Shown piece after piece: positions 13,425-18,411 of a stretch of DNA of 26,324 nucleotides. Positions within the stretch are counted from its first letter, which is position 1; each line of letters starts with the position of its first letter. The notes below the pieces were generated by a model that was given only the letters and a program-made list of their open reading frames with translations, was not told the origin of the DNA and searched no databases. A program made the translations under genes and the position numbers. Source of the DNA: an uncultured Candidatus Saccharibacteria bacterium (lineage in GTDB: Bacteria > Patescibacteriota > Minisyncoccia > Minisyncoccales > Staskawiczbacteraceae); assembly GCA_964355995.1 (NCBI GenBank), contig CAYHFP010000001.1, positions 1 through 26,324 of the forward strand. Direction: 5' to 3'.

Positions 13425-13943
13425 ATGAATACCCTAAAAGATATCCAAGAATTTATCAATCTGGCGCAAAAAAATAGAAAGTATCCGGCCAACACAGCTC
13501 ACGGAAAGCGCGCGGCTTTAAAGTTATTTGAGACTGTTTTACACCCAGATGAGCTGGAATCCTTAGAACTAATAGAAGATAGAATGAAAGAGATTTACCT
13601 TAGCTTAATCAGTCGTCACCAACATACCTTTAGTATTAAGTCCCTCAATACCTATAAGGGAAGATTTTTAAAAACCATCCAAGATTATAAAAGATATGGC
13701 AAAGATCCAGATGCTTTTTCACGCTGGGAAGTCAAAAACCGCAAGCAGAAAGACAAAGACACAAAAGAAGATACTAAAAAAGATACATCTCTATCTAATA
13801 TATCTTCATCCATTCACAGCCCTGTGCATAAGATACAGATAACCCTAGAATCTGGCAAGACTTTCTCCATGGAAATTCCGCAAAATATTTCTAAAGGAGA
13901 TTCCACCATCATTCAAAAGATTATTTCATCTTTTACAGAATAG
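13425..13943 (+). CDS. Hypothetical protein (helical N-domain, Lys/Asp linker, small C-domain)
   Basis: 172-aa ATG-started ORF convergent with the RT; no confident family. Confidence 0.7.
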   Translation: MNTLKDIQEFINLAQKNRKYPANTAHGKRAALKLFETVLHPDELESLELIEDRMKEIYLSLISRHQHTFSIKSLNTYKGRFLKTIQDYKRYGKDPDAFSRWEVKNRKQKDKDTKEDTKKDTSLSNISSSIHSPVHKIQITLESGKTFSMEIPQNISKGDSTIIQKIISSFTE

Positions 13944-13991
13944 ATATTCTGTGGAAAACTTTAAAAATTTAAAAACCGCGCTAAACGATTT

Positions 13992-15037
13992 TTAAATTAA
14001 CTTTAAAATTTCTTCTCGCAAATCGTATGAATTGCAATGTGTTAAAACTCCTAAATAAGATTGCAGAGTTTTATTGAATTTTTCCTCCGACATTTCCTTG
14101 TTTTTTAGAGCGTTAACTTTTACTACAATATTCTTTAACATCCTATCTCTTGTTTTTACTCTTACTATTTTATGATACGGAAAAACCACATATCCTAAAA
14201 AATCAACCCCTTGATGATACTTTCTGACAACAATTTTATTTGGATGAAGTTCCAGTTTTAGATTATTTTTTAAAAAAGCATCTATTTTCGATATATAACT
14301 TTCAAACTTTTCCATGCCATCTTCTACAATCACAAAATCATCGCAATACCTTATATAGTATTTTATCCTGAGTTGATGCTTAATAAATTGGTCTAATTCG
14401 CATAGATAAACATTAGAAAATAATTGACTGACAACATTCCCCAAAGGCAAACCCTTTTCAAAACTTTTAATAATACTTTCTAGAAGCCAAATAACTTCTG
14501 CATCTTTAATTTTCTTTTTTACCAAATCAAGCAAAATATCCTGGTCAATGGAGTCAAAAAACTTTCTGACATCACATTTTAAAACATATGCCGGCTTTGT
14601 ATTATTTCTACTTTGCTTTTGCAAAAACACTTTTAATTTCTCAACAGCCCTATGCGCCCCTTTTTCATTTCGACAAGAATAAGAATCAAAAATAAAATGC
14701 CGGTCAAAAGTGGGGTATAAAATTCTAAAAATAGCGTGGTGCAATACCCTATCGCGAACACAGGCCTTGTGAATATGTCTTATTTTGGGGTCTTTAACAT
14801 AAAAAGAATAATAAGGCGAATGTTGATAGGTTTTATTTTTTAACTCTTGATAAAGCTTGAATATATTTGGTTCTAAGTTATACTCAAATTGCATAACATC
14901 AGGCTTGCTTCTTTTACCTTTTTTAAACTCGTCCCAAGCCAAAAACAAATTCTCAAGAGAAACAATATCATTAAATAAATTATCACTATGACCTTTAACC
15001 CCCCCCCCCAGACAGTTTCAATTTGCCTATCTTGCAT
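13992..15037 (-). CDS. DGR reverse transcriptase; likely ATG (15037) is out of frame across G11
   Basis: RDRVLHHAI, GLPLGNVVSQLF (DGR-type GxxxSQ), YIRYCDDF, DFLGY. The RT frame extends upstream to VKGHSDNLFNDIVSLENLF but contains no ATG. Confidence 0.92.
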
Positions 15038-15364
15038 AAAGTTTATGAATTATATAAATTATTTTATGAATACTCAAAATGGTTTCCTAAAAAAGATAAA
15101 CACATCATTGGTAAACGATGTGAGGACTTAATCTTAGACATTATAGAATTAATCTTGCTGGCAATCAATGATAAAACCGACCGTAAATTACTTATCCTGG
15201 AAAAAATCAGTGCCAAGCTCAACACCCTCAGAATGTTTATTCGTATAACCAAAGAATTGAAAATTATCAGTCTAACTAAATACGCTATTTTACAATCAAG
15301 GATTGATGAGATTGGCAAATTATTGGGTGCGTGGATAAAAAATGCACAAAAGAAAAGCCCCTAA
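14988..15364 (+). CDS. avd: DGR accessory variability determinant (Avd, four-helix bundle); likely ATG (14988) is out of frame across C11
   Basis: PILHKVYELYK..FPKKDKHIIG..LEKISAKLNTLRMFIRI..IDEIGKLLGAWIK, adjacent to RT and TR. Confidence 0.85.
14999..15009. repeat. C11/G11 homopolymer inside the RT/avd overlap
   Basis: tttaa-ccccccccccc-agacag. Confidence 0.9.
15049..15077 (-). promoter_or_regulatory. Candidate RT promoter inside avd
   Basis: Minus strand TTGAGT (15077-15072)-17-TATAAT (15054-15049), 11 nt before ATG 15037. Confidence 0.45.
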
Positions 15365-15375
15365 GGGCTTTTCTT
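15350..15375. terminator. Hairpin between the avd 3' end and the TR 3' end, possibly bidirectional
   Basis: aagaaaagccc-ctaa-gggcttttctt. Confidence 0.65.
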
Positions 15376-15384
15376 CATTATATA

Positions 15385-15508
15385 GGAACTTCGGAGCGAG
15401 CGCAGATATTGTCATTGGAGTTATCGGGGTTGTAGTTGTTGCCATAGACCTTGCTATTGCCAGAGTTGAAGTTGAGGTAAGGGACATTACCATTGGAATC
15501 GCGCGAAC
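15385..15508 (-). ncRNA. DGR template repeat (TR)
   Basis: 124-bp ungapped match to the VR, with 34 adenines and 11 AAY codons in the target frame. Confidence 0.95.
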
Positions 15509-15704
15509 GCATATTGTGTAGTTACATCTATGTCACCGGTAATACAAAATTAGTATTCCCTGAGTTTTTCTCTGTCCGTCGCAGAGCAGTTTTCCGAGTC
15601 AAAGTTACTCAAGATAATTACACAAGCAGTTCCCAAATTGTATTGCGGCAAACCGATATTCCGTAGAACCGGTTATATTAGCCAAGATTATTGTATAAAA
15701 AAAT

Positions 15705-15745
15705 ACCGCTTTTTGCAACATCTTAGTGATGTTGCAAAAAGCGGT
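15705..15745 (-). terminator. 18-bp-stem hairpin after the DGR target gene
   Basis: accgctttttgcaacatc-ttagt-gatgttgcaaaaagcggt, followed by a T-run on the minus strand. Confidence 0.75.
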
Positions 15746-15778
15746 TTGATTGACGGAATTCAAAAATTCAAGAACTCG

Positions 15779-15798
15779 CGTCAACTTGCGAGTTGACG
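15779..15798. promoter_or_regulatory. Candidate DGR homing hairpin directly 3' of the VR
   Basis: cgtcaact-tgcg-agttgacg, 8-bp stem with 4-nt loop. Confidence 0.6.
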
Positions 15799-16572
15799 GG
15801 GAACTGCGGAGCGAGCGCAGACAGGGCCACCGGAGTGATCGGGGCTGCAGTCGTAGCCATAGACCTTGCCATCGCCAGAGTCGAAGAAGAGGCAAGGGAC
15901 AAGACCATAGGAAACGCGCGAACCTCCCGACTTCGTCCACCTCGCGACATTCAAATGACCTCCTGTCGTTATGTGATACGCCAACTCCAACAACCAGTCC
16001 TCGAGGTGCGTCGTATCAACCAACCCTTGGCTCCGGCGCCAGTTGGCGTCTTGATTGGCATTGACGGGAGGCTCCACAGTTGCCTCAACATCAACCACAT
16101 ACGACCCGTCCCGGTAAGGGTTGCGGTCGTTGCGTTTGATGTTTTTGACTTGGTCATCGGCGAACGCGGTATCCATATCTGCGTACCACGATTTCGCCGC
16201 AAATTTCGGCTTCGCCTTGGCACCAATTTGGTGAAGTGCGTCCCGGACTTTGTTGAGCGTGACGAGACGAATTTCTTCATCTCCATCTCTGCGAAAAAAA
16301 TCCAAAACTGGCACTGTCCATCGGCCCATCCTGTCGCCCATCTCCAAGCCGGCGATTTTGGCATCGTATTCTTCGGGTTCAACGCCAAGGATTTTGTAGG
16401 TCACCCGCCAATCCAACGCGGTGGGCAGCGGTACTTCTTCAATCACCACTGGCGGATTAACTTCTACCAACATCCACTCGCCACGCAGAAGCGCTTCGGC
16501 ACGATCTTCTCCGCCGATTTTGTTGATGACGGATTCGAGCCAATTACCTGTCCTGTGTCCATACTTTGACAT
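15781..16572 (-). CDS. DGR target protein with a variable C-terminus (probably CLec-like fold)
   Basis: VR encodes SRVSYGLVPCLFFDSGDGKVYGYDCSPDHSGGPVCARSAV; probable start MSKYGHRTG. Confidence 0.9.
   Translation of the reverse strand: MSKYGHRTGNWLESVINKIGGEDRAEALLRGEWMLVEVNPPVVIEEVPLPTALDWRVTYKILGVEPEEYDAKIAGLEMGDRMGRWTVPVLDFFRRDGDEEIRLVTLNKVRDALHQIGAKAKPKFAAKSWYADMDTAFADDQVKNIKRNDRNPYRDGSYVVDVEATVEPPVNANQDANWRRSQGLVDTTHLEDWLLELAYHITTGGHLNVARWTKSGGSRVSYGLVPCLFFDSGDGKVYGYDCSPDHSGGPVCARSAVPRQLAS
15800..15923 (-). repeat. DGR variable repeat (VR) at the 3' end of the target gene
   Basis: 22 mismatches to the TR, all at TR adenines. Confidence 0.95.
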
Positions 16573-16755
16573 CACAACCTTCTTTCTCTGGCTGATAACC
16601 AGAATTATTCCCACACCTGATAGGCGGGGGCCACGAAATGTGGCGATGCCAAGCCGCCAAAATAGCAGCCATAGCCAAAAATCCTCTTTTTTAAAAAGAC
16701 TTTTGGCTATGGCTAGCTAAATTTCAATTCTAAAAGAGCTTTAAACTATGTAATA

Positions 16756-16785
16756 ACTATAGCATACAATGTAATAATATGTCAA
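16756..16785 (-). promoter_or_regulatory. Sigma70-type promoter for the DGR target gene
   Basis: Minus strand TTGACA-18-TATAGT with extended -10 TG. Confidence 0.55.
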
Positions 16786-16800
16786 GCTTTTTAGGTGCTT

Positions 16801-16832
16801 TCAAAAGGTGCGCCCGCGGGCGCACCTTTTGA
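16801..16832. repeat. Perfect 32-bp palindrome, CCCGCGGG core
   Basis: tcaaaaggtgcgcccg|cgggcgcaccttttga. Confidence 0.9.
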
Positions 16833-16878
16833 TTTTTTTTCACATTCTAACTCCTAAATACCAAATTCCAAATACTCA

Positions 16879-18411
16879 CTAACGCGCATACTCCACAATT
16901 CGATTCTCTCGAATCACGGTCACCTTAATTTCTCCTGGGTATTTTAATTCTTCTTCAATATTTTGAGCAATTTGTTTGGCAATTTTATTTGCTCCCAAGT
17001 CATCAATTTTTTCTGCTTTCACAAACACGCGAATTTCACGCCCAGCTTGAATAGCATAAGCCTTTTCAATGCCATCAAATTTATTGGCAATATCTTCAAG
17101 AGCCTTGAGTCGTTGCAAATAATTTTCAATGGTGTCCTTTCTTGCCCCTGGACGTGACCCAGAAATCGAATCCGCCACCGTCACAATCACCGCTTCAATA
17201 GTATCTGATGGGTAATCGTTATGGTGAGAACGCATAGCGTGAATAACCGCCTCAGATTCGCCATATTTTTCCAAAATTTTAATTCCAATTTCAATGTGTG
17301 AACCTTGAATTTGTTGGTCCAAAGCTTTTCCAATGTCGTGAAAAAGCGCGCCACGTTTAGCTACTTGGCTATCGGCTTTTAATTCATCAGCAATGGTTTC
17401 GGCAATTTGCGCCACTTCCATAGAGTGGGCCAATACATTTTGACCATAACTGGTTCGGTAATGAAGCCTGCCCAAAATTTGCACCAATTTATCATGAACT
17501 CCGACAATTCCCAAGTCATAAATAGCTTTTTCACCCGCTTGCTTTATAATTTGAGTAATTTCTTCCGTTGCTTCGGCCACCTTTTCTTCAATTTTAGCCG
17601 GCTGAATCCTGCCATCGGCAATTAATTTATCCAAAGCAATTTTAGCAATTTGTCTTCTAATTGGATTAAAGCAAGAAATCACCACAGAATCCGCACTTTC
17701 ATCCAAAATTAATTCCACGCCCGTCATTTTTTCAAAAGTCTTAATGTTTCGGCCTTCTTTACCAATAATTCTTCCCTTAATGTCTTCGCTAGGTAGAATA
17801 ATTGTCGTCGTGCTCAATTCTTGAGTGTGAGGCACCGCCACTTTTTGAATGGCGAGCGCCACAATATCTCTTGCTTTAGATGATAGTGTATCGCGACCCT
17901 GCTCTTCCATTTTTTTAATTCTTTCTAAAATATCTTTTTGGTAATCAGTTTCCACCAAAGCCAAAAGTTCTTTTTTAGCATCTTCGCGAGATAAATTGGC
18001 CACTTTTTCTAATTTTCCTTCAGCTTCCAGCCTCAATTTGTCCACGCCCTCTTTTACCACCTTTAATTTTTCTACTTTATCCGTAAGTTCGGCATCTTTT
18101 TTATCGAACATAGAAACCTTATCCTCCAACAATTTTTCTCTATCCAACAAAACTTGCTGAGCTTTTAAAAACTCTTTTCTTCGTTGATCAATATCTTTTT
18201 GCGAGGCTTCAATTAATTGAGCCGATTTTACTTCAGCATTCTTAACCAACGATGCGGTTTCTTCTTTTACTTGAATGACTCTTTTTTGTAACTTTTCTTC
18301 AAGTGACCCTGCGCGCTTTTTTGCCAATGATTGACGGGCGTAATATCCAATCACGCATCCGGCAACCAGGGTCAAAACACCGACAATAAAATTTATAATT
18401 ATTTGATCCAT
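16879..18411 (-). CDS. rny: Ribonuclease Y
   Basis: N-terminal TM, coiled coil, KH motif KGRIIGKEGRNI, HD domain FHDIGKA, C-terminal AIQAGREIRV..YPGEIKVTVIRE. Confidence 0.97.
   Translation of the reverse strand: MDQIIINFIVGVLTLVAGCVIGYYARQSLAKKRAGSLEEKLQKRVIQVKEETASLVKNAEVKSAQLIEASQKDIDQRRKEFLKAQQVLLDREKLLEDKVSMFDKKDAELTDKVEKLKVVKEGVDKLRLEAEGKLEKVANLSREDAKKELLALVETDYQKDILERIKKMEEQGRDTLSSKARDIVALAIQKVAVPHTQELSTTTIILPSEDIKGRIIGKEGRNIKTFEKMTGVELILDESADSVVISCFNPIRRQIAKIALDKLIADGRIQPAKIEEKVAEATEEITQIIKQAGEKAIYDLGIVGVHDKLVQILGRLHYRTSYGQNVLAHSMEVAQIAETIADELKADSQVAKRGALFHDIGKALDQQIQGSHIEIGIKILEKYGESEAVIHAMRSHHNDYPSDTIEAVIVTVADSISGSRPGARKDTIENYLQRLKALEDIANKFDGIEKAYAIQAGREIRVFVKAEKIDDLGANKIAKQIAQNIEEELKYPGEIKVTVIRENRIVEYAR

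What the first reader, a model, noticed from the sequence alone, without database searches (positions are those of the whole stretch)
13992..16785. Non-canonical DGR layout: inverted avd and a terminator separating TR from RT
The order is target(-), TR(-), avd(+), RT(-). In the BPP-1 model avd, TR and brt are co-oriented and the RNA 3' of TR is needed for cDNA priming. Here TR is followed within about 10 nt by an 11-bp hairpin shared with the avd stop, and the RT has its own candidate promoter inside avd (15049-15077). The template RNA may therefore be a stand-alone ncRNA (about 15690 to 15350) with a very short 3' spacer, implying different priming; or it reads through as antisense to avd.
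Basis: partly seen in the sequence, partly recalled or inferred. Interest (0 to 1): 0.75.

Follow-up and report, generated by a model that had tools for sequence, protein, structure and literature searches.

The report
Permuted template RNA of CPR DGR
This is a working-looking diversity-generating retroelement whose "odd" gene order is the already catalogued standard for ultra-small CPR bacteria; its template appears to be a separate ~340-nt RNA that carries its likely primer and stop structures in front of the template rather than behind it as in the one studied phage element.

Summary
Target(-), TR(-), avd(+) and RT(-) are as described. A 12-bp tetraloop hairpin starts 8 nt after TR and holds the avd stop codon.

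The layout is not new. It is Architecture B3, TR-(avd)-RT, which makes up 90% of CPR DGRs in Wu et al. 2018. I found it in 47-64 of 80 related loci, so it is not a misassembly.

The stand-alone template RNA idea is supported by comparison only. The unit has a terminator and a conserved -10 box upstream, a conserved ~175-nt folded leader, TR, then the hairpin. The leader and hairpin persist in relatives that lack avd.

"Different priming" is probably wrong. One leader strand pairs with the TR 3' end (helix D). A second helix (H2) abuts D and ends just before TR. Both covary strongly. The element order matches a circular permutation of the BPP-1 DGR RNA. RNA downstream of the hairpin shows no such pairing.

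The VR base at the mutagenesis boundary matches the leader rather than TR. A conserved poly-G run gates both RT and avd.

There is no RNA evidence. I found none of this in the literature I could search. This scan has reported the leader, the poly-G switch and the boundary rule before, on other genomes.

The parts
15781..16614 (-). DGR target gene, 277 aa from GTG; an in-frame ATG lies 14 codons further in. It has no Pfam or PDB sequence match and is GC-rich (about 50%) in a 36% GC genome.
16756..16785 (-). Promoter-like site of the target gene, TTGACA-18-TATAGT, 11 of 12 matches.
15800..15923 (-). Variable repeat (VR) at the 3' end of the target gene.
   Evidence: 22 differences from TR, all at TR adenines
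15773..15798 (-). Inverted repeat directly after VR, in the position of the IMH-associated hairpin. Two overlapping alternative stems of 7-8 bp.
   Evidence: a comparable hairpin is found in only 17 of 47 relatives
15705..15745 (-). 18-bp hairpin plus T-run: terminator-like end of the target transcript, lying between the target gene and the TR unit.
   Evidence: similar hairpin-plus-T-run elements lie before the -10 box in relatives
15690..15718 (-). Promoter-like site of the TR RNA, TTGCAA-17-TACAAT. The -10 box lies 6-8 nt before the conserved 5' motif GGCTAAT.
   Evidence: -10-like hexamers cluster at a fixed distance upstream of the leader in relatives
15647..15683 (-). Conserved 5' module of the TR RNA (GGCUAAU...CGGUUUGCC). 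The putative transcript start lies here.
15626..15638 (-). Helix D 5' strand (primer-like strand ending ..GGGAACU) plus the two junction nucleotides G and C.
15614..15625 (-). Helix H2 5' strand, stop-duplex-like, directly after the junction nucleotides.
15533..15610 (-). Internal leader domain closed by H2. It holds hairpin P3 (15610-15596), an A-rich joiner (15595-15587), P4 (15586-15570), P5 (15559-15538) and a conserved GGUGA (15537-15533).
15514..15525 (-). Helix H2 3' strand, ending 5 nt before the TR/VR homology begins.
15385..15508 (-). Template repeat (TR).
15380..15392 (-). Helix D 3' strand: the last nucleotides of TR plus the first nucleotides after it. The last A-to-N difference (15391) lies immediately 5' of the paired AGUUCC.
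15349..15376 (-). Terminal 12-bp tetraloop hairpin of the TR RNA. It is terminator-like on both strands, holds the avd stop codon in its loop, and occupies the position of the BPP-1 Avd-binding stem-loop.
   Evidence: Handa et al. preprint
15023..15364 (+). avd, bAvd-like, read from TTG 15023. An upstream ATG at 14988 is out of frame across the C-run.
14999..15009 (.). G11/C11 homopolymer in the head-to-head overlap of the RT and avd 5' ends. One extra base would put both genes in frame with their ATGs.
15049..15077 (-). Promoter-like site for the RT inside avd. Its -10 box starts 17 nt before the RT ATG at 15037, a position kept in relatives but confounded by Avd coding.
13992..15037 (-). DGR reverse transcriptase. 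The body is open from 15017 to the stop at 13992. The conserved N-terminus starts before the first listed start codon (TTG 14948). CTG 15011 is in frame. ATG 15037 is off by one base at the G-run.

Best explanation
This is a complete DGR of the CPR (Patescibacteria) clade with the known B3 gene order, target/VR, TR, (avd), RT.

Its template is most likely made as a separate ncRNA of about 340 nt, from roughly 15683 to 15345 on the minus strand. The unit has:
- its own promoter;
- a conserved, folded leader of about 175 nt;
- the 124-nt TR;
- a terminal hairpin that ends the RNA and may also bind Avd.

The leader supplies, from the 5' side, what the BPP-1 spacer supplies from the 3' side.
- A primer-like strand (..GGGAACU) pairs with the last nucleotides of TR and places the first templated base at its end (helix D).
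- Two nucleotides later, a 12-bp helix (H2) begins. Its other strand lies just upstream of TR, where it could stop cDNA synthesis.
- H2 encloses hairpins and A-rich single strands that could hold the RT.

Read in order, this is a circular permutation of the BPP-1 DGR RNA. The gene order therefore needs no new priming chemistry and no read-through into the RT.

RT and avd are expressed separately from a head-to-head overlap that contains a slippery G/C run.

Shown: the anatomy, its conservation and the covariation of the helices. Inferred: the transcript ends, cis-priming from the leader, Avd binding by the hairpin, and switching by the homopolymer.
For: 1) DGR identity: adenine-only TR/VR differences, bAvd, and an RVT_1 RT with LGNVVSQ.

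2) The layout is standard. Wu 2018 B3 is TR-(avd)-RT, 90% of the CPR set. In 80 RT relatives, avd lies on the opposite strand directly upstream of the RT in 64 (68 with a profile), and 47 show complete TR-(avd)-RT.

3) Hairpin after TR. In 34 of 47 loci the best hairpin is compact: it starts 0-22 nt after TR, with dG -9.7 to -27 kcal/mol and a median 13-bp stem. The hairpin sequences differ between loci. A hairpin is also present in the six relatives where I first found no avd.

4) Conserved leader. nhmmer finds it in 58 related loci plus the window. Covariance model R1 finds one full-length match per locus in 59 of 83 sources, always on the RT strand. R1 also hits 10 of 151 sampled phylum genomes.

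5) Helix D. Cognate leader/TR-end duplexes average -9.47 kcal/mol against -5.97 for non-cognate pairs, and 0 of 20000 permutations reach this. In alignment A2, 11 of 12 pairs show compensatory changes.

6) Helix H2 and P3-P5. A2 has 86% of cells paired against 67% shuffled and 40-50% when slid. A4 has 93% against 66%, and 28 of 30 pairs carry double changes. RNAalifold found H2 on its own. The single-sequence MFE fold reproduces D, H2, P3-P5 and the hairpin.

7) Match to BPP-1 (Handa et al. preprint 10.1101/2023.10.23.563531). BPP-1 has an 11-bp tetraloop stem-loop right after TR, a template:primer duplex at the TR 3' end, two nucleotides, then a stop duplex to sequence just upstream of TR, then a short stem-loop, adenosines and an RT-binding stem-loop.

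8) The last A-to-N change lies directly 5' of helix D. The VR base there pairs with the leader junction base in 34 of 43 loci against 11 of 43 for TR, with shuffles giving 21.9 +/- 2.4.

9) A conserved -10 box precedes the leader, and a terminator precedes that.
Against: - No RNA data exist for this organism, so the transcript ends, termination at the hairpin and priming are all untested.
- Everything rests on metagenome-assembled genomes.
- Covariation statistics are inflated by relatedness, and A4 was fitted to the model.
- Only 18 of 34 compact hairpins have a T-rich tail, so termination may be partial.
- Handa et al. report stem-loops and stop duplexes for CPR DGRs using 40 nt upstream plus 100 nt downstream of TR. 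That implies they expected the downstream side to matter.
- The equivalence of single leader elements to the thumb ring and RT-binding stem-loop is by order only, not by sequence.
- In this assembly RT and avd are both one base out of frame with their ATGs. The element may be off, or the run may be mis-assembled at 3-5x cover.
Confidence: 0.65

Rival explanations
1. Read-through model. The hairpin is only a leaky bidirectional terminator or an Avd-binding stem-loop. The functional template RNA continues as antisense avd towards the RT, and the primer and RT-binding elements lie downstream of TR as in BPP-1. The leader would be only a stabilising or regulatory 5' UTR.
For: BPP-1 needs RNA 3' of TR. 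Handa et al. predict downstream elements in many DGRs, including CPR ones. Only about half of the hairpins have a clear T-tail. TR and RT are on the same strand.
Against: The 150 nt downstream of the hairpin show no cognate complementarity to the TR 3' end: -11.77 against -11.23 kcal/mol, p = 0.056. An equal length of leader does, with p < 5e-5. The leader helices D and H2 covary strongly and bracket TR. In relatives with no avd between TR and RT, the leader and a hairpin are kept, and only about 40-80 nt separate the hairpin from the RT. The RT has its own ATG with a -10-like box.
Confidence: 0.12
2. The leader is a real structured RNA but does not prime. cDNA synthesis would start another way: from the 3'-OH of the terminated or nicked RNA folding back, from nicked target DNA (target-primed), or from a trans primer. 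Helix D would then serve only to mark or mask the TR end (IMH*), or to protect TR from being a homing target.
For: Naorem et al. 2017 (PMC5703328, listed) proposed priming by nicked template RNA. The TR junction base is usually mismatched with the leader while the VR base matches, which also fits a self/non-self marking role. Priming chemistry cannot be read from sequence.
Against: The geometry of D is that of a primer:template duplex. Its primer-strand 3' end abuts the last mutagenised adenine. The two-nucleotide link to a stop-like helix copies the BPP-1 arrangement, where cis-priming was shown. Non-A differences at the boundary turn VR towards the complement of the leader, which suggests the leader strand takes part in the transfer.
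Confidence: 0.18
3. The inverted avd is an assembly artefact, or this copy is a decaying, rearranged DGR.
For: The source is a metagenome-assembled genome at low cover (3-5x). Contigs break at the homopolymer and inside VR. RT and avd are out of frame with their ATGs.
Against: The same order occurs in 47-68 independent assemblies from many studies, in this genome's second DGR on contig C31 and in the literature. The TR/VR differences are purely at adenines, and all ORF bodies are intact.
Confidence: 0.02

Closest known systems
Architecture B3 DGRs, TR-(avd)-RT, of CPR/Patescibacteria (Wu et al. 2018, NAR 46:11, PMC5758913); DGR clade 2 of Roux et al. 2021 (PMC8144416)
   Same: Same gene order and orientations, same host group, Avd present, target without recognisable domains. 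Wu et al. already noted that components on different strands need at least two transcription units.
   Different: Nothing differs at the level of gene order, so this is a typical member. The published descriptions I could read give no promoter, leader, priming site or terminator for the TR unit.
Bordetella phage BPP-1 DGR RNA (avd 3' end - TR - spacer) in the bRT-Avd RNP (Handa et al. 2018, PMC6182149; preprint 10.1101/2023.10.23.563531)
   Same: Both have a stem-loop of 11-12 bp with a tetraloop just 3' of TR, and a duplex between the TR 3' end and a primer strand. Two nucleotides link that strand to a second duplex of about 12 bp, whose partner lies just 5' of TR. A short hairpin, adenosines and further stem-loops follow.
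   Different: Here the primer strand, stop helix and protein-binding-like domain lie 5' of TR instead of 3', a circular permutation. There is an extra 5' module. The RNA ends at the stem-loop. avd is inverted and is not part of the RNA. No sequence similarity was shown, and no biochemistry exists.
Retron msr-msd RNA (from my own knowledge of retron biology)
   Same: The primer-bearing part lies 5' of the template. A strand near the 5' end pairs with the 3' end of the template (a1/a2), and the priming nucleotide sits at the end of that duplex. Here the junction base is G in 25 of 43 loci.
   Different: The RT clade differs. Avd is the partner. The product is used for mutagenic homing into VR. 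No msDNA or branch has been shown here.
Rfam RT-1 to RT-19 motifs (Weinberg et al. 2017, PMC5737381), of which RT-10 is the BPP-1 spacer
   Same: They are structured RNAs next to bacterial RT genes, proposed to act in DGRs or retrons.
   Different: No Rfam family matches 13500-17200 at E <= 1 apart from chance-level hits to unrelated families.

Membership tests
Diversity-generating retroelement (DGR) | TR/VR repeat pair whose differences lie at TR adenines | tested here: met
   22 of 22 differences lie at TR adenines, over 124 nt.
Diversity-generating retroelement (DGR) | Reverse transcriptase of the DGR type (RVT_1 with the [LIV]GxxxSQ motif) | tested here: met
   RVT_1 at 7e-21. LGNVVSQ is present in the translation. 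That this motif defines DGR RTs is from my own knowledge.
Diversity-generating retroelement (DGR) | VR at the 3' end of a target ORF, with an IMH-like end and an inverted repeat after it | tested here: met
   VR ends 17 nt before the stop codon. A GC-rich end is shared with TR. A 7-8-bp inverted repeat follows at 15773-15798.
Diversity-generating retroelement (DGR) | Accessory protein Avd | tested here: met
   Pfam bAvd at 1.6e-19, above the cut-off.
Architecture B3 of Wu et al. 2018 | Core order TR-(avd)-RT with avd on the reverse strand | tested here: met
   for the window. for 47 relatives. Definition.
BPP-1-type DGR RNA | Functional spacer 3' of TR that carries the primer strand | tested here: not met
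   Only 8 nt plus a hairpin follow TR. The downstream 150 nt show no cognate complementarity to the TR end (p = 0.056).
BPP-1-type DGR RNA | Template:primer duplex at the TR 3' end next to a stop duplex, linked by two nucleotides | tested here: met
   Helices D and H2 are present with covariation. The primer-side strands lie 5' of TR.
BPP-1-type DGR RNA | Stem-loop directly 3' of TR that binds Avd | tested here: inconclusive
   The position and size match (12 bp, tetraloop, 8 nt after TR). Binding cannot be tested here. The hairpin also exists in avd-less loci.
BPP-1-type DGR RNA | cDNA primed in cis from a 2'-OH of the RNA | not testable with these tools
   This needs biochemistry.
Intrinsic (Rho-independent) terminator | GC-containing stem-loop followed by a T-run on the transcribed strand | tested here: met
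   Flagged on the minus strand at 15376..15349. A T-rich tail is present in 18 of 34 relatives. Function was not tested.
Rfam RNA families, including RT-1 to RT-19 | Match to a curated covariance model | tested here: not met
   No relevant hit at E <= 1.

The most novel reading that the evidence does not exclude
CPR DGRs use a circularly permuted template RNA. The RT-Avd complex is primed in cis from a leader nucleotide 5' of the template, in a retron-like topology. The leader base next to the primer end is carried into, or selected to pair with, the target, so it sets the IMH/IMH* difference that makes homing one-way. The whole machine is toggled by one shared G/C homopolymer in the overlapping starts of RT and avd.
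Probability: 0.45. Interest if true: 0.8.

Novelty: new variant of a known kind. Interest (0 to 1): 0.6.

Why it matters
DGR mechanism rests almost wholly on one phage element, yet by the published surveys most DGRs in nature sit in CPR bacteria with this other gene order. If the template RNA is a permuted version of the BPP-1 RNA, three things follow.
- The cis-priming RNP is older and more adaptable than the gene order suggests.
- It explains how avd can be inverted and TR cut off from the RT.
- It gives a defined 340-nt RNA plus two small proteins to reconstitute from an uncultivated lineage.

The boundary rule, where VR follows the leader rather than TR, offers a direct handle on the least understood step: how cDNA is joined to the target and why TR itself is not overwritten.

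The gene order itself is ordinary for this group.

Tried and rejected
- Rfam scan of 13500-17200 at E <= 1 gave only chance-level hits to unrelated families.
- Expression data: no RNA holder is listed for this stretch.
- Laying the four DNA runs gave only 3-5x contig pieces. These break at the homopolymer and inside VR, and none bridges the run. I could therefore check neither the run length nor VR heterogeneity.
- The target protein has no Pfam family at E <= 1 and only chance-level PDB sequence hits (E >= 0.4). I did not fold it.
- The hairpin after VR is not a general feature, being present in 17 of 47 relatives, as Wu et al. also found.
- The second DGR of this genome (C31) is cut by the contig end just upstream of avd, so its TR and leader cannot be seen.
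- Literature searches for a permuted or upstream DGR RNA, and for a homopolymer switch in DGRs, found nothing. The library lacks most subscription papers, for example Paul et al. 2017.
- I considered and rejected three readings: the hairpin as merely the avd terminator, since it persists without avd; misassembly; and a downstream primer strand.
Full report
**Observation**

The window holds a complete DGR on the minus strand.
- A 124-nt repeat pair, TR 15508..15385 and VR 15923..15800, is 82% identical. All 22 differences fall on TR adenines, 22 of 34.
- VR ends a 277-aa ORF, 16614..15781.
- avd (15023..15364, plus strand) matches Pfam bAvd at 1.6e-19.
- The RT (to 13992, minus strand) matches RVT_1 at 7e-21 and carries LGNVVSQ.
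- Eight nucleotides after the TR/VR homology ends, a 12-bp tetraloop hairpin (15376..15349) begins. The avd stop codon lies in its loop. On the TR strand a T-rich tail follows it.

So the description is correct.

The genome is 679 kb in 74 contigs and 98.9% complete by marker genes. All close relatives of the RT are Patescibacteria (CPR), with a few DPANN archaea.

**Is the layout unusual?**

No. Wu et al. 2018 (PMC5758913) define Architecture B3 as TR-(avd)-RT with avd on the reverse strand. [quoted passage not shown] They also note that components on different strands need separate transcription units.

I counted it myself in 80 loci fetched with the RT.
- avd lies on the opposite strand immediately upstream of the RT in 64 loci, or 68 with a profile.
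- 47 loci show the full TR-(avd)-RT with an adenine-specific TR/VR pair.
- The genome's second DGR, on contig C31, has the same avd(-)/RT(+) pair at a contig end.

Misassembly is therefore excluded, and the gene order is already known.

**The hairpin**

In 34 of 47 loci the best hairpin after TR is compact. It starts 0-22 nt after TR, with dG from -9.7 to -27 kcal/mol and a median stem of 13 bp. Loops are 3-8 nt, most often 4. The hairpin sequence differs from locus to locus. In 25 of the 47 loci the hairpin overlaps the avd stop codon.

It is not simply the avd terminator. In six relatives where I first found no avd (L004, L012, L015, L021, L029, L063), TR lies directly upstream of the RT. 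A terminator-shaped hairpin still follows TR there by a few nucleotides in five of them and overlaps its end in the sixth. A profile search later gave weak avd-like hits in L015 and L029.

A T-rich tail follows 18 of the 34 compact hairpins. In BPP-1, an 11-bp stem with a tetraloop occupies the same place (Sp 3-33) and is the Avd-binding element (preprint 10.1101/2023.10.23.563531). The two roles are not exclusive, and I cannot separate them here.

**The leader**

The about 175 nt between the target gene's terminator (15745..15705) and TR are conserved across the clade.
- nhmmer finds the core in 58 related loci plus the window.
- A covariance model (R1) finds exactly one full-length match per locus in 59 of 83 sources, always on the RT strand and always just upstream of TR.
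- R1 also hits 10 of 151 evenly sampled genomes of the phylum.
- No Rfam family matches, including the RT-1 to RT-19 motifs of Weinberg et al. 2017.
- A -10-like hexamer sits at a fixed distance upstream of the conserved 5' motif GGCUAAU (window 15683). It often follows a hairpin plus T-run that ends the target transcript.

**Two long-range helices**

Helix D pairs a leader strand ending in ACU (window 15638..15628) with the last nucleotides of TR plus the first few after it (15390..15380).
- In a test free of alignment choices, cognate pairs of the leader 16-mer and the TR-end window give -9.47 kcal/mol. Non-cognate pairs give -5.97, and 0 of 20000 permutations reach the observed mean.
- On alignment A2, 11 of 12 D pairs have compensatory changes.

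Helix H2 was found by RNAalifold without my input. It pairs 15625..15614 with 15525..15514, that is, from two nucleotides after D to 5 nt before TR. Ten of its 12 pairs have double changes.

For D and H2 together, 86% of cells are paired. Shuffles give 67%, and sliding the partner gives 40-50%.

Inside H2 lie hairpins P3, P4 and P5 and conserved single strands: an A-rich joiner, AAC.CAG and GGUGA. On the model-fitted alignment A4, 93% of cells are paired against 66% shuffled, and 28 of 30 pairs have double changes. That alignment leans towards the model. The MFE fold of the window's 341-nt RNA alone reproduces D, H2, P3-P5 and the terminal hairpin.

**Comparison with BPP-1**

In the cryo-EM RNP of Handa et al., the elements run as follows:
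- a strand in the avd 3' end (stop duplex, part a);
- TR, whose 3' end is the template strand of the template:primer duplex;
- the Avd-binding stem-loop;
- the primer strand;
- two nucleotides;
- the stop duplex, part b;
- a short stem-loop;
- adenosines;
- a single-stranded thumb ring;
- the RT-binding stem-loop.

Here the elements run:
- a 5' module;
- the primer-like strand (D);
- two nucleotides;
- the H2 5' strand;
- the short hairpin P3;
- the A-rich joiner;
- P4 and P5;
- the H2 3' strand;
- TR, with the D 3' strand at its end;
- the terminal stem-loop.

Start the BPP-1 list at its primer strand and join its end to its beginning, and the two orders coincide. This is an argument from order and geometry, not from sequence similarity or biochemistry.

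As a control, the 150 nt downstream of the hairpin (antisense avd) show no cognate complementarity to the TR end: -11.77 against -11.23 kcal/mol, p = 0.056. The same length of leader does, with p < 5e-5.

Handa et al. searched 40 nt upstream and 100 nt downstream of TR. The primer-like strand lies more than 100 nt upstream of TR in this clade, so that search could not have found it.

**Boundary of mutagenesis**

In the window, the last A-to-N difference (TR A at 15391, C in VR) lies immediately 5' of the paired AGUUCC.

Across 43 loci, the VR base at that position is complementary to the leader base that follows the primer-like strand in 34. The TR base is complementary in only 11. Shuffling gives 21.9 +/- 2.4.
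- Among the 26 loci where TR and VR differ at this position, VR is the complementary one in 23 and TR in none.
- This includes non-adenine differences (C>G, T>G, C>T) that adenine mutagenesis cannot explain.
- In five further loci, VR appears to carry one extra base at this junction (by-eye realignment).
- In the window, the VR end is the exact complement of the leader 9-mer GGGAACUGC.

Either the leader base next to the primer end is transferred into VR, or VR is selected to pair with the leader while TR is kept mismatched, which would be the IMH/IMH* distinction. Both readings tie the leader to homing. Which one holds is open.

**Expression of RT and avd**

The RT body has no ATG. Its conserved N-terminus begins upstream of the first listed start codon. 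An ATG at 15037 opens a short leader peptide that runs into an 11-base G-run (15009..14999) one base out of frame.

The run (7-11 G, mode 10) is conserved in 45 related loci and in this genome's second RT. The genome has only six G/C runs of 8 or more.

On the other strand, an ATG at 14988 is likewise out of frame with avd. In 26 of 32 loci, the same change of run length would put both genes in frame with their ATGs. In the window that change is +1 for both.

That spacing is kept in relatives, although the same bases encode the Avd N-terminus.

**Limits**

No RNA run holds this stretch. The DNA runs give 3-5x contigs that break at the homopolymer and in VR. Transcript ends, termination, priming and switching are all inferences.

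**Earlier work in this scan**

After I had reached this reading, I found that the scan has reported three of these points on other genomes:
- a permuted or 5' structured template RNA in CPR DGRs (for example e1-2043208, e1-4392462, e1-877693);
- the shared poly-G switch (for example e1-989197, e1-1107844);
- the boundary rule (e1-2042836).

Those are unchecked AI notes. This report is an independent repeat on another clade member, not independent proof.

In the papers I could search, I found no description of any of the three.

**Verdict**

The gene order is ordinary and already known. The element is a typical member of its clade. What the order implies for the template RNA, a permuted cis-priming architecture, is well supported by covariation and appears unpublished. 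It awaits RNA and biochemical tests.

Noticed in passing
window 14999-15009 (with ATG 15037 on the minus strand and ATG 14988 on the plus strand): A G11/C11 run lies in the 50-bp head-to-head overlap of the RT and avd 5' ends. A run of 7-11 G is kept in 45 related loci and at this genome's second RT (C31:337). In 26 of 32 loci the same length change would put both genes in frame with their ATGs (16 need -1, 6 are in frame, 4 need +1 including the window). It looks like a slippage switch for the whole DGR. Run length here rests on 3-5x cover, with no bridging contig.
   Followed up: partly
window 15806 (VR), 15391 (TR) and 15627 (leader); 43 related loci: The VR base at the 3' boundary of mutagenesis is complementary to the leader base next to the primer-like strand in 34 of 43 loci, against 11 of 43 for the TR base. 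This includes non-adenine TR-to-VR differences. In five loci VR appears to have one extra base there.
   Followed up: partly
the 70 nt downstream of VR in related loci; weak in the window (15745-15799): CTTG-containing motifs recur with a 7-8-nt period just after VR. There are 1.81 per 70 nt, against 0.30 in random windows and 0.15 after TR. CCTTG is enriched 10-fold. This could be a target-side recognition array. Only 17 of 47 loci have a clear hairpin after VR.
   Followed up: partly
window 15781-16614: The target gene is far more GC-rich (48-54%) than the genome around it (about 36%), over its whole length and not only in VR.
   Followed up: no
L004, L012, L021, L063 (and L015, L029 with only weak avd-like hits): Some of the closest RT relatives have no avd between TR and RT. 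They keep the leader, a hairpin after TR and the poly-G run. Avd may be supplied in trans or be dispensable there.
   Followed up: partly
genome contig C31:1-1357 (L001): A second avd(-)/RT(+) pair with a G10 run lies at a contig end, next to ybeY and ftsA. Its TR and target are cut off by the contig end.
   Followed up: partly
window 15516-15616 and 14304-14707: In the groundwater runs, contigs of other organisms pile up on the leader core and on RT motifs (depth 25-60 against about 4). Several related DGRs therefore seem to share these segments in the same samples.
   Followed up: no
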